Sequence record: NZ_CP118992.1
Strand: one strand, 5' to 3'
Length of the DNA: 64,000 nt
From: a plasmid
Below the pieces are notes generated by a model. The model searched no databases, was not told the origin of the DNA, and saw only the letters and a program-made list of their open reading frames with translations. This document shows positions 2,387 through 3,562 of this stretch, piece by piece (positions within the stretch are counted from its first letter, which is position 1; every line of letters starts with the position of its first letter). A program made the position numbers and the translations under genes.

Positions 2387-2420
2387 GATAGCTATATATC
2401 TTTTAAGATAGCTAGCTATC
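2387..2420. promoter_or_regulatory. two adjacent palindromic operator-like sites (GATAGCTATATATC imperfect; GATAGCTAGCTATC perfect 14-mer)
   Basis: Read directly in sequence between the relaxase stop and the AbiTii start. Same motif family recurs at 3343, 3545, 62327, 62358 and 63324. Confidence 0.5.
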
Positions 2421-2446
2421 TATCTAAATATGGTGGTGAGAGTGTA

Positions 2447-3344
2447 TTGGAATTTGGAGGAAGGATGCCTGCTCTTGTCCCGGAACTGGTGAATGCGGCA
2501 ATTGATGCCTCGGTGTCGCCCGGCGATTTGTTACGCCGGGCGCTGGTTGTTGCGCGGCGTCTGGCCGTGCCTGAGCTGGTCGATTGGATCAGCAGCGAAC
2601 TGAACGGCTACTACTCAGGGGAAGTGCCGGACTATCGTCGGGTACAGGGGCAGTTGATGGCTGAAAACCCGATTCATGGCCCGATCCCGTTTTTTTTCGC
2701 CGCCAGACATGGCCGAGCTGCTGTCAGACTTCGCTGTAAGACAGTCGGTGCCGGAGCTGATGCAGCTTGCTCAGAGCACAACCGGAATTTACAGCCACTT
2801 TCCGGCCAACATCGAGCACACGCTGATGCAAATGATGCGCGAGGCGAACGGTGTGACGATGCGCCCGGCGCTCAGGTTTTCCACCGTGCAGGTGCAGGGT
2901 ATCATCGAGAAGGTGCGGAGTCGGGTGCTCGAATGGGCGCTTGATCTGGAGGCTAAAGGCGTGCTCGGGGAAGGCATGACGTTCACTCAGCAGGAGAAGC
3001 AGACTGTGCAGCAGCATTACCACTTCGGAGACGTAAGCGGCTCCCAAATTCAGATCGGATCGAATAGCTCTAACCAGACCCAGACTCAAACAGGCGGTGA
3101 CATGGCTGCGCTGTCAGCCTTGATTGAGCTGCTGCGCGATGCCATCCAGCAGGGACGCATCGAAGCCGAGGTGCGCGATGAATTGCAGGCAGAGCTGGCG
3201 ACATTGCAGGCTCAGGCTGCATCGCCAAAGCCCAAGTGGGCCGTCATCAAGGCGACCGCAGAGAGCATCAAAGCCGTGTTGGAAAACGCGGCAGGTAGCG
3301 TGCTTGCAGCGCAGGCGCTACCATACCTGACGGCGCTGCTGTGA
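2447..3344 (+). pseudogene. AbiTii-domain abortive-infection-like protein, reading frame broken at T8 homopolymer (2692-2699)
   Basis: ORF 2447..2944 N-terminus (LVPELVNAAIDAS...ELNGYYSGEVPDYRRVQGQL...GPIPFF) matches the AbiTii N-terminal domain pattern. ORF 2676..3344 continues in the +1 frame; removing one T of the T8 run gives a continuous ~298-aa protein (...GPIPFFSPPDMAELL...). Confidence 0.6.
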
Positions 3345-3360
3345 TAGCTATCTAGCTAGC
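3343..3360. promoter_or_regulatory. palindromic site GATAGCTATC plus TAGCTAGC, just after the AbiTii stop
   Basis: Sequence tgatagctatctagctagc; same motif family as 2407-2420. Confidence 0.45.
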
Positions 3361-3544
3361 TTTGCTGGGGATGGGCCAGAAACGACAGACCCGCCAGTAG
3401 GCGAGTCTGTCGAGGTATTGGGGTGGCCCTGCATAACATGGCCAGAACGAACCTAGTGTCATCACCAGTATGGTGGCTGGGAGAGGACTGAGCCTAGGGC
3501 TGCGAGCCAAGTATAGCAACACATGGGCGGGGTGGGGCGCGGTT

Positions 3545-3562
3545 GATAGCTATATAGCTATC
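3545..3562. promoter_or_regulatory. perfect 18-bp palindrome GATAGCTATATAGCTATC
   Basis: Read directly; the sequence is its own reverse complement. Confidence 0.5.

What the first reader, a model, noticed from the sequence alone, without database searches (positions are those of the whole stretch)
2387..3562. Recurrent GATAGCTA(G/T)..TAGCTATC palindromes bracket the relaxase-AbiTii module and the second par locus
Seven sites of one palindrome family occur at 2387, 2407, 3343, 3545, 62327, 62358 and 63324. They are perfect 14- to 18-bp dyads built from GATAGCTA half-sites. They sit precisely in intergenic positions between traI and the AbiTii gene, after the AbiTii gene, upstream of parA2 and after its partner gene. 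This resembles a global operator or centromere network such as KorA/KorB in IncP-1, but with an unrelated sequence. The binding protein could be the ParA2 partner (63027..63332), the small paralog family, or an element outside the window.
Basis: seen in the sequence. Interest (0 to 1): 0.7.

Follow-up and report, generated by a model that had tools for sequence, protein, structure and literature searches.

The report
Partition-protein binding sites scattered over plasmid
The repeated GATAGCTA palindromes are real, and are most likely the DNA sites bound by this plasmid's small partition protein: they sit at its own promoter, at its centromere and around a neighbouring anti-phage gene, an uncharacterised example of a known type of plasmid control network.

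Summary
GATAGCTA occurs 14 times against 0.7 expected, in seven clusters at the two ends of the window. Two coordinates are slightly off, and only four clusters are perfect 14- or 18-bp dyads. The sites are really short arrays of TAGCTA cores in a strict 4-bp register.

The window's backbone is a pGES5/pRSB105-type mobilisable plasmid, not Rms149-type IncP-6.

The motif follows the 101-aa protein encoded after parA (63027-63332):
- Homologues of 43-59% identity on unrelated plasmids carry TAGCTA arrays upstream of parA and at the parB stop codon. Most also have extra arrays beside other operons.
- A 40% homologue instead has seven tandem 8-bp TATAGCAT repeats at its parB stop.
- Rms149, which has a different ParB, has none.
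- The motif does not follow ParC or AbiTii.

In the window:
- The 18-bp dyad fills the -35/-10 spacer of the predicted parA promoter.
- The AbiTii gene is frameshifted and has lost a 245-bp upstream segment holding two further clusters.

Most likely this is a type Ib ParB operator and centromere network, analogous to omega of pSM19035 or KorB. It is a new member of a known kind. Binding itself is untested.

The parts
2387..2428 (.). Two site clusters after the relaxase gene and upstream of AbiTii: GATAGCTATATATC (imperfect) and GATAGCTAGCTATC (perfect 14-bp dyad) with a TATCTA extension. TAGCTA cores lie 20 and 4 bp apart, in 4-bp register.
   Evidence: One CTAT unit more than in L008.
3343..3361 (.). 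Site overlapping the AbiTii stop codon (TGA 3342-3344): GATAGCTATC followed by TAGCTAGCT.
   Evidence: The same position in L008 reads GATAGCTAGCTATCTAGCT.
3545..3562 (.). Perfect 18-bp dyad GATAGCTATATAGCTATC (two cores 8 bp apart). It is the last backbone site before homology to relatives ends at about 3626. In fuller relatives it precedes 59-bp direct repeats and, beyond a Tn402/integron insertion, a serine-recombinase gene.
62314..62343 (+). Predicted parA promoter, TTGTGA-18 nt-TATAAT. The 18-bp dyad GATAGCTAGCTAGCTATC (62318-62335) fills the spacer.
   Evidence: The same arrangement is found in L009. The exact 18-mer occurs 6 times in 596 Gb of genomes, 5 of them just upstream of this parAB.
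62359..62377 (.). Second operator-like site, GATAGCTAGCTATC followed by TAGCT. It lies between the predicted promoter and the parA start codon (62398).
62398..63030 (+). parA: a 210-aa Walker-type partition ATPase with no N-terminal DNA-binding extension (type Ib size).
   Evidence: Pfam CbiA/AAA_31. NCBIfam ParA_partition scores 166 bits, below the cut-off of 180.
63027..63332 (+). parB-like partner, the proposed binder. 101 aa from the GTG start; the true start is probably the ATG at 63036. It has a conserved N-terminal tail (MKGKPDL..KDPTAFLEGG), a variable linker and a near-invariant C-terminal TVQKLFRLRWD...RVTETEIVE region. The last codons and the stop are encoded by the site array.
63324..63349 (.). 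Compound array GATAGCTAGCTAGCTAGATAGCTATC overlapping the parB stop. It is the probable centromere (parS-like) site. An array occupies this position in all homologous systems examined.
   Evidence: The tetramer copy number varies among near-identical cassettes.
63436..63738 (+). ParC-like gene. It is part of the par operon region but is not the determinant of the motif.
   Evidence: 36% identical to Rms149 ParC. NCBIfam ParC scores 75.7 bits, below the cut-off of 95. The motif persists where ParC is divergent or absent.
2465..3344 (+). AbiTii-family gene bracketed by the sites. In this window it is disrupted by +1 T in a T-run at about 2690 (T8 against T7). It also lacks 245 bp of upstream spacer, which in L008 holds two more site clusters.
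   Evidence: Pfam AbiTii matches on both halves. Alignment to the intact 293-aa copy in L008.

Best explanation
The palindromes are binding sites for the small protein encoded directly after parA (63027-63332). This protein is an uncharacterised, probably ribbon-helix-helix, centromere-binding partner of a type Ib ParA.

The unit recognised is a TAGCTA core, about 8 bp as (G/T)ATAGCTA. Cores are laid down in short arrays in 4-bp register. Because the core is self-complementary, the arrays read as 10- to 18-bp dyads.

Proposed roles, all inferred from position:
1. The 18-bp dyad inside the -35/-10 spacer of the parA promoter, and the 14-bp dyad just downstream, give autorepression of parAB.
2. 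The array at the parB stop codon is the partition site on which ParB builds the complex that ParA moves.
3. The identical sites after the relaxase gene, before and after AbiTii, and at 3545 are further ParB-loading sites. They place neighbouring operons under ParB control (repression or read-through block) and may also act as extra centromeres.

What is shown: motif enrichment, its co-inheritance and co-variation with this ParB family, the promoter overlap, and dispersed sites in several relatives. What is inferred: binding, repression and centromere activity.
For: Enrichment
- GATAGCTA is 14 observed against 0.7 expected.
- TAGCTA is 17 against 4.6 in the window, 26 against 1.8 in L008 and 22 against 1.8 in L009.

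Co-inheritance with ParB across otherwise unrelated plasmids. ParB identity is 43-59% by alignment for L002-L006, L010 and L012, and 46-52% for L024 and L025.
- L002 12 observed / 0.8 expected.
- L004 12 / 0.6.
- L005 14 / 0.85.
- L010 8 / 1.2.
- L012 13 / 0.7.
- L024 20 / 0.8.
- L025 13 / 1.3.
- L006 4 / 0.4.
- L003 3 / 0.6.
- In these loci arrays lie upstream of parA and at or just after the parB stop.

Co-variation
- The 40%-identical Zymomonas ParB has no TAGCTA. It has 7 tandem 8-bp TATAGCAT repeats at its parB stop, and its predicted beta-strand region differs: TQQKIFRLPID against TVQKLFRLRWD.

Negative controls
- Rms149, with an unrelated 66-aa ParG-annotated partner, has 2 TAGCTA in 57 kb against about 3.4 expected.
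- An AbiTii homologue on a plasmid with no ParB match (not among the records hit) has none.

Reverse test
- The exact 18-mer occurs 6 times in 596 Gb of genomes. Five of these lie directly upstream of a parAB at least 90% identical to the window's.

Binder is not ParC
- L022 keeps the sites with a ParC only 36% identical.
- L002-L005 and L012 have no parC.

Register
- 85 of 89 spacings between neighbouring cores are multiples of 4.

Promoter
- TTGTGA-18-TATAAT, with the dyad filling the spacer.

Fold
- The C-terminal half is invariant.
- The AF2 model has two confident helices.

Dispersed sites in relatives
- L008/L009: the AbiTii spacer, the Abi/RM operon end and the parA-DotA/TraY divergent region.
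- L024: upstream of an Eco57I-type gene and near kfrA.

Established knowledge
- Type Ib partners (ParG of TP228, omega of pSM19035) are RHH proteins that bind short repeat arrays, autoregulate, and serve as centromere binders.
Against: - No binding data exist, and none could be generated here.
- Co-occurrence cannot separate ParB from ParA. The choice of ParB rests on general knowledge that small type Ib ParAs lack a specific DNA-binding domain.
- No consensus sigma-70 promoter was found next to the AbiTii-flanking sites or the 3545 site, so a regulatory role there is not shown.
- In this window AbiTii is frameshifted and its proximal site cluster is deleted, so any control of AbiTii is vestigial here.
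- One homologous locus (L026) has only 2 cores.
- Intergenic placement is partly forced by the stop codons within the motif.
Confidence: 0.6

Rival explanations
1. The sites do bind ParB, but the copies around AbiTii and at 3545 are only additional centromere or loading sites (a multi-site centromere, as in N15 or pMF1). They have no regulatory effect on AbiTii or other neighbouring genes.
For: - The densest set of cores in the full backbone is the relaxase-AbiTii region, not par: 14 cores in L008 20159-21573 against 10 at par.
- No consensus promoter was found at these sites.
- Several sites lie at gene 3' ends rather than at promoters.
- The sites persist in the window although AbiTii is a pseudogene.
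Against: - In relatives, distal clusters often end 14-57 bp upstream of start codons. Examples are L008 AbiTii at 20 bp, L024 RM gene at 54 bp, L025 at 14 and 28 bp, and L010 at 32 bp. Most parA-proximal sites have similar geometry, 17-33 bp, with two loci at 62 and 68 bp (coordinates).
- RHH partition proteins with dispersed sites that have been studied (omega of pSM19035) do both jobs (general knowledge).
Confidence: 0.25
2. The sites are bound by a different factor, such as ParC-like proteins, KfrA, or a host protein. Their association with parAB reflects shared ancestry of a cassette rather than ParB specificity.
For: - The window has three ParC-like genes (63436-63738, 13511-13741, 42787-43005).
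- KfrA-type genes occur in L001, L008, L012 and L024.
- ParB binding is untested.
Against: - Sites persist where ParC is only 36% identical (L022) or absent (L002-L005, L012).
- Rms149 has a homologous ParC but no sites.
- No KfrA gene is called within the 20 kb of L010 or L025.
- The repeat unit changes together with the ParB sequence in L007.
- Hosts span Gamma-, Beta- and Alphaproteobacteria and Acidithiobacillia, which argues against one host factor.
Confidence: 0.07
3. The arrays are not protein-binding sites. They are slippage-prone tetranucleotide repeats, hairpin or terminator elements, or recombination scars at module junctions, and they are kept out of genes only because they contain stop codons.
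For: - Tetramer copy number varies between near-identical cassettes: the CTAT gain at 2416 and 4 against 6 cores after parB.
- Stop codons occur in two of the three frames.
- Sites lie at module boundaries and at points where homology between relatives ends, 3522-3626.
- The 62318 dyad is flagged as terminator-like.
Against: - Position relative to parA and parB is conserved at 40-59% protein identity, while the flanking DNA is unrelated.
- The dyad is placed exactly in the promoter spacer.
- The 4-bp register holds across gaps of 8-20 bp that are not simple repeats.
- The other sites are not terminator-like.
- The 245-bp deletion end-points are not in the arrays.
Confidence: 0.05

Closest known systems
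Omega (ω) of inc18 plasmid pSM19035
   Same: - A small RHH protein that partners a small ParA (δ).
- It binds arrays of short repeats.
- The arrays sit at several promoters across the plasmid, and the same sites serve as centromeres, so partition and global regulation are combined.
- This is the best analogue for the logic proposed here (general knowledge; also cited in PMC3235114).
   Different: - Omega binds 7-bp heptads (WATCACW). Here the core is TAGCTA in 4- or 8-bp register.
- No sequence similarity was detected.
- Omega is found in Firmicutes; this family is found in Proteobacteria.
- Here many sites sit at gene 3' ends and overlap the parB stop codon.
ParG/parH of TP228 (type Ib ParF-ParG)
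   Same: - A small ParA with a partner of about 8-10 kDa.
- The partner has a flexible N-terminal tail and a C-terminal RHH domain.
- It binds arrays of tetramer boxes with an 8-bp period that overlap the par promoter, giving autorepression and centromere function (general knowledge).
   Different: - No match to the Pfam ParG family or to any solved structure by sequence.
- The box sequence differs: ACTC against TAGCTA.
- TP228 sites lie upstream of the operon only. Here an array also lies at the parB stop, and further sites are dispersed.
KorB/OB (and KorA) network of IncP-1 plasmids
   Same: - One partition protein with a palindromic site repeated around the backbone.
- It acts as both centromere binder and global repressor.
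   Different: - KorB is a large HTH ParB (type Ia) with a 13-bp OB site that acts at a distance.
- The protein here is about 100 aa and RHH-like, and no ParB/Spo0J domain was found.
- The resemblance is one of logic only.
parABC of Rms149 / pRA2 (IncP-6 type)
   Same: - Same gene order, parA-parB-parC.
- ParC is homologous (36% identity, E 6e-15).
- ParA and ParC hit the NCBIfam ParA_partition and ParC models below cut-off.
- pRA2 ParB is reported to autoregulate parAB and to bind parS (title of Kwong et al. 2001, as cited in PMC3235114).
   Different: - The ParB is unrelated.
- The protein encoded next to par in Rms149 is unrelated to the relatives' RepA.
- Rms149 lacks the TAGCTA motif.
- The pRA2 experiments therefore do not transfer to these sites.
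MetJ and tandem 8-bp metboxes
   Same: An RHH dimer recognises an 8-bp self-complementary box (AGACGTCT) laid down in tandem arrays of two or more boxes. This resembles ATAGCTAT-type units at 8-bp spacing (general knowledge).
   Different: - MetJ is a chromosomal metabolic repressor that needs a co-repressor and has no partition role.
- There is no homology.

Membership tests
Type Ib plasmid partition system (small ParA + small centromere-binding partner) | Walker-type ParA of about 200-230 aa without an N-terminal DNA-binding domain | tested here: met
   210 aa. Pfam CbiA/AAA_31 covers residues 1-185. NCBIfam ParA_partition scores E 7e-49 over 3-207 of a 203-position model, 166 bits, below the cut-off of 180.
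Type Ib plasmid partition system (small ParA + small centromere-binding partner) | Small partner gene immediately downstream and translationally coupled | tested here: met
   parB (GTG 63027) overlaps the parA stop (63028-63030). The product is 98-101 aa. The gene pair is conserved in all homologous loci.
Type Ib plasmid partition system (small ParA + small centromere-binding partner) | Partner has a ribbon-helix-helix DNA-binding fold | tested here: inconclusive
Type Ib plasmid partition system (small ParA + small centromere-binding partner) | Repeat arrays at the par promoter that act as operator and/or centromere | tested here: met
   Sequence level only. The dyad fills the spacer of TTGTGA-18-TATAAT and a second dyad lies before the start codon. 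Arrays occupy the same position in most homologous loci examined, 9 with two or more cores. L025 and L026 have a single core there, L007 has no TAGCTA, and in L027 the region lies off the contig.
Type Ib plasmid partition system (small ParA + small centromere-binding partner) | Partner binds the repeats and stimulates the ParA ATPase; the locus stabilises a plasmid | not testable with these tools
   Needs EMSA or footprinting, ATPase assays and stability assays.
ParG family (Pfam ParG; TP228 ParG) | Sequence match to the ParG profile | tested here: not met
   No Pfam hit for the window protein at E<=0.1, and none for 49 family members at E<=5. No PDB sequence hit to ParG.
KorB / ParB-Spo0J (type Ia, HTH) global regulators | ParB N-terminal and HTH domains; protein of about 300 aa or more | tested here: not met
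   101 aa with no ParB-type Pfam domain.
Rms149/pRA2-type IncP-6 par-rep module | ParB and RepA homologous to those of Rms149 | tested here: not met
   ParB compared with the Rms149 partner gives E 0.28. RepA of the close relative L001 compared with the Rms149 protein encoded next to par gives E 0.61. Only ParC is homologous.
AbiTii (Pfam PF18864) abortive-infection protein | Full-length match to the AbiTii profile in one reading frame | tested here: not met
   The profile is split. Positions 2-73 match frame 2465-2944 and positions 83-187 match frame 2676-3344. The cause is +1 T relative to the intact 293-aa gene in L008.

The most novel reading that the evidence does not exclude
Probability: 0.2. 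Interest if true: 0.6.

Novelty: new member of a known kind. Interest (0 to 1): 0.42.

Why it matters
- pGES5/pRSB105-type mobilisable plasmids carry GES, KPC, tmexCD and other resistance genes in Pseudomonas, Aeromonas and Enterobacterales.
- Their stability system rests on a partner protein with no family assignment, and I found no description of a binding site for it in the papers I could reach.
- Defining the site (TAGCTA arrays in 4-bp register) and its distribution gives a directly testable model for three things: partition, incompatibility between plasmids sharing this cassette, and control of neighbouring genes, including an abortive-infection gene.
- It adds a proteobacterial example to the small set of RHH partition proteins with dispersed sites. 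It is not a new principle.

Tried and rejected
1. I first filed the window under Rms149-type IncP-6 and expected the pRA2 ParB/parS experiments to apply. This was rejected. Rms149 has an unrelated ParB, the protein encoded next to its par genes is unrelated to the relatives' RepA, and it has no TAGCTA motif.
2. The key papers are not held, so I cannot exclude that the repeats were noted there: Haines 2005, Schlüter 2007 (pRSB105) and Kwong 2001.
3. A full-text search for the motif strings returned only primer-type matches.
4. Sequence-based assignment of ParB gave nothing: Pfam, NCBIfam, and PDB by phmmer and by profile. Foldseek against the PDB was not significant.
5. A consensus promoter scan found nothing at the AbiTii-flanking sites or the 3545 site.
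6. Rfam found nothing in 2300-4900.
7. The idea that the motif belongs to the AbiTii cassette was rejected. A 44% homologue in L015 has none. The Edwardsiella copy (L014) keeps the sites but is near-identical DNA and therefore uninformative.
8. The window's other ParA locus (16611-17575) was checked as a possible user of the motif. It has no sites nearby.
9. A restriction-site explanation was considered. The RM system of relatives is called PaeR7I-type in PMC8421773. From general knowledge PaeR7I cuts CTCGAG, which is not this motif, and the window lacks that RM system.
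Full report
**Observation**

GATAGCTA occurs 14 times on both strands in the 64-kb window, against 0.70 expected from dinucleotide-preserving shuffles. All exact copies fall in seven clusters:
- 2387-2400
- 2407-2420, with an in-register TATCTA extension
- 3343-3352, followed by TAGCTAGCT
- 3545-3562
- 62318-62335
- 62359-62372
- 63324-63349

TAGCTA cores number 17 against 4.6 expected. Within the AT-rich fraction of the window alone the figures are 14 against 1.84.

- Two coordinates are off: 62327 should be 62318 and 62358 should be 62359.
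- Only four clusters are perfect 14- or 18-bp dyads.
- 2387 is imperfect, 3343 is a 10-bp dyad, and 63324 is a 26-bp compound array.

The arrays contain stop codons in two of three frames on either strand, so their absence from ORFs is partly forced. The stop codons of AbiTii (TGA 3342-3344) and of parB (TAG 63330-63332) are supplied by the arrays themselves.

**What the element is**

Both ends of the window match a family of small mobilisable plasmids from Pseudomonas, Aeromonas, Klebsiella and Enterobacter. Members include pHN21SC1505-3 (L001, 99.3% identical), a P. aeruginosa AR_0353 plasmid (L008), pGES5 (L009) and the start of the pRSB105 record.

The rest of the window is a mosaic of transposons, IS elements and resistance genes, plus an unrelated par/rep module at 16611-18274. 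Only 5-3626 and 62220-64000 are shared with L008.

I first took the family for Rms149-type IncP-6. That was wrong:
- The Rms149 partner protein is unrelated to the window's ParB, and the protein encoded next to par in Rms149 is unrelated to the RepA of the close relative L001.
- Only ParC is homologous, at 36% identity.
- Rms149 has the motif at chance level: 1 ATAGCTA and 2 TAGCTA in 57 kb.

Rms149 therefore serves as a negative control, and the pRA2 ParB experiments do not transfer to these sites.

The segment missing between window positions 64000 and 1 (repA, kfrA, mobEDCB) has no sites in the complete relatives L001 and L008. The window therefore shows the whole set of sites for this plasmid.

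**Who binds**

The motif follows the 101-aa protein encoded after parA. Its homologues sit beside small ParA genes on unrelated plasmids of Pseudomonas, Acidithiobacillus, Polaromonas and Zymomonas, and on metagenomic contigs.

In loci whose ParB is 43-59% identical, TAGCTA is strongly enriched:

| Locus | Observed | Expected |
|---|---|---|
| L002 | 12 | 0.8 |
| L004 | 12 | 0.6 |
| L005 | 14 | 0.85 |
| L010 | 8 | 1.2 |
| L012 | 13 | 0.7 |
| L024 | 20 | 0.8 |
| L025 | 13 | 1.3 |

In these loci arrays lie upstream of parA and at or just after the parB stop.

Other evidence points the same way:
- The most divergent homologue examined (Zymomonas, 40% identity) has no TAGCTA. It has seven tandem 8-bp TATAGCAT repeats at its parB stop, and its predicted strand region has changed. 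Same place, same period, different unit.
- In the reverse direction, the exact 18-mer GATAGCTAGCTAGCTATC occurs in only six places in 596 Gb of reference genomes. Five of them are directly upstream of a parAB at least 90% identical to the window's.
- The motif does not follow ParC. L022 has the same sites with a ParC only 36% identical, several loci have no parC, and Rms149 has a ParC but no sites.
- The motif does not follow AbiTii. A 44% homologue in L015 has none.

**Anatomy of the sites**

Across 12 loci, 85 of 89 distances between neighbouring TAGCTA cores (up to 40 bp apart) are multiples of 4. The counts are 4 bp ×45, 8 ×17, 12 ×11, 16 ×7 and 20 ×3.

The arrays are therefore strings of 4-bp units (GATA, GCTA, TATA, TCTA). 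Because the core is self-complementary, short arrays read as dyads. The number of tetramers varies between near-identical cassettes.

**The protein**

- It belongs to no Pfam or NCBIfam family and has no sequence relative in the PDB.
- The family is modest in size: 139 clusters at 50% identity among 1.84 billion representatives.
- The alignment shows a conserved N-terminal tail, a variable linker and a near-invariant C-terminal TVQKLFRLRWD...RVTETEIVE region.
- The AlphaFold monomer gives two confident helices preceded by an extended segment.

The RHH fold is therefore likely, not proven.

**Function**

At parA, the 18-bp dyad exactly fills the spacer of a good sigma-70-like promoter (TTGTGA-18-TATAAT). 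The 14-bp dyad lies between that promoter and the start codon (the same in L009). This is the classical geometry of autorepression in type Ib systems.

An array lies at or just after the parB stop in every homologous system examined. It is the best candidate for the centromere.

In fuller backbones (L008, L009) arrays lie at:
- after the relaxase gene;
- three places in a 369-bp spacer before AbiTii, the last ending 20 bp before the start codon;
- the AbiTii stop;
- 200 bp further on, beside 59-bp direct repeats where a Tn402-type element has inserted;
- the convergent junction that ends a resolvase-RM-Abi operon;
- the divergent region between parA and a DotA/TraY operon.

Unrelated plasmids show the same habit:
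- L024 has arrays before an Eco57I-type gene, near kfrA and at gene ends.
- L025 has arrays before several small operons.

Distal clusters typically end 14-57 bp before a start codon, similar to most of those at parA. No consensus promoter was detected at the AbiTii-flanking sites. Whether those copies regulate, act as extra centromeres, block read-through, or combine these roles remains open.

In this window the question is partly moot. AbiTii is frameshifted by an extra T at about 2690, and 245 bp of its upstream spacer, with two site clusters, has been deleted.

**Comparison and verdict**

The system works like omega of pSM19035 or ParG of TP228: a small RHH partner of a small ParA that binds short repeat arrays, autoregulates and marks the centromere. 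Its dispersed sites recall omega and, in logic only, KorB. It is not a member of the ParG, KorB or Rms149/pRA2 ParB families by sequence.

I rate it a new member of a known kind. The binder family and its site appear undescribed in the literature I could reach. I could not read the pRSB105, Rms149 or pRA2 papers. The principle itself is established.

The most novel reading not excluded is that this ParB systematically brackets and silences defence operons. The sample supporting that is small.

Noticed in passing
window 2465-3344 (T-run at about 2690-2697) and 2450: The AbiTii gene is split by +1 T (T8 against T7 in the intact 293-aa copy of L008). The relaxase-AbiTii spacer is 245 bp shorter than in L008. 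L001's annotation, which covers only the C-terminal part, suggests the same frameshift.
   Followed up: yes
L008 20195-20340 (deleted in the window): The 245-bp segment missing from the window is packed with GGTGG/ATGGTGG-type short repeats lying between the TAGCTA clusters. Their function is unknown; they may be binding sites for another factor.
   Followed up: no
window 3566-3626; L008 21578-21760: Right after the 3545 dyad, L008 has about 2.3 copies of a 59-bp direct repeat (GTGTTCAAAAAACGGTGGCAAAG...). The repeats are followed by a Tn402-type terminal repeat (TGTCATTTTCAGAAGACGACTGCAC), and a serine-recombinase gene lies beyond the integron. Tn402-family elements target res sites, so this is probably the plasmid's res region. 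The window keeps one repeat copy, and backbone homology ends at 3626.
   Followed up: partly
window 3384-3411, minus strand (L008 21397-21424): A 12-13-bp GC-rich hairpin followed by a short T-run on the minus strand lies between the AbiTii stop and the 3545 site. RNA of 3362-3545(-) folds with z = -3.2, and there is no Rfam match. It suggests a short leftward transcript convergent with AbiTii.
   Followed up: partly
window 16611-18274: This is a second, unrelated par/rep-like module. Its ParA is 38% identical to the backbone ParA. A 99-aa partner (17276-17575) has a weak BrnA/RHH-like match, and a 227-aa ORF follows. There are no TAGCTA sites nearby.
   Followed up: partly
window 13511-13741 and 42787-43005: Two further ParC-like paralogues, 32-34% identical to 63436-63738, lie inside the accessory region.
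   Followed up: partly
window 63324-63349 compared with L001 34040-34069, L022 750-779 and L008 9844-9869: The array after parB differs between near-identical cassettes in the number of GCTA tetramers (4 to 6 cores). This is consistent with slippage in the 4-bp register.
   Followed up: partly
L007 3268-3330 (Zymomonas pZYMOP02): Seven perfect tandem 8-bp repeats (ATTATAGC) overlap the stop codon of a 40%-identical ParB. This is a variant centromere unit for a divergent family member.
   Followed up: partly
window 62398-63738: ParA and ParC are distant relatives of the NCBIfam ParA_partition and ParC models, and ParC is homologous to that of Rms149. The ParB between them has no detectable relative in those systems. 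This suggests replacement of the DNA-binding partner within a conserved parA-x-parC frame.
   Followed up: partly
window 16326-16480 compared with L008 32114-32268: 155 bp upstream of the window's other ParA gene is 83% identical to part of a small hypothetical gene in the resolvase-RM-Abi operon of L008.
   Followed up: no
plasmid collection hits H121-H130 (Aeromonas and Enterobacter large plasmids): AbiTii homologues of about 40-44% identity occur in 2-9 places per plasmid in several large Aeromonas plasmids, that is, as a multi-copy family.
   Followed up: no
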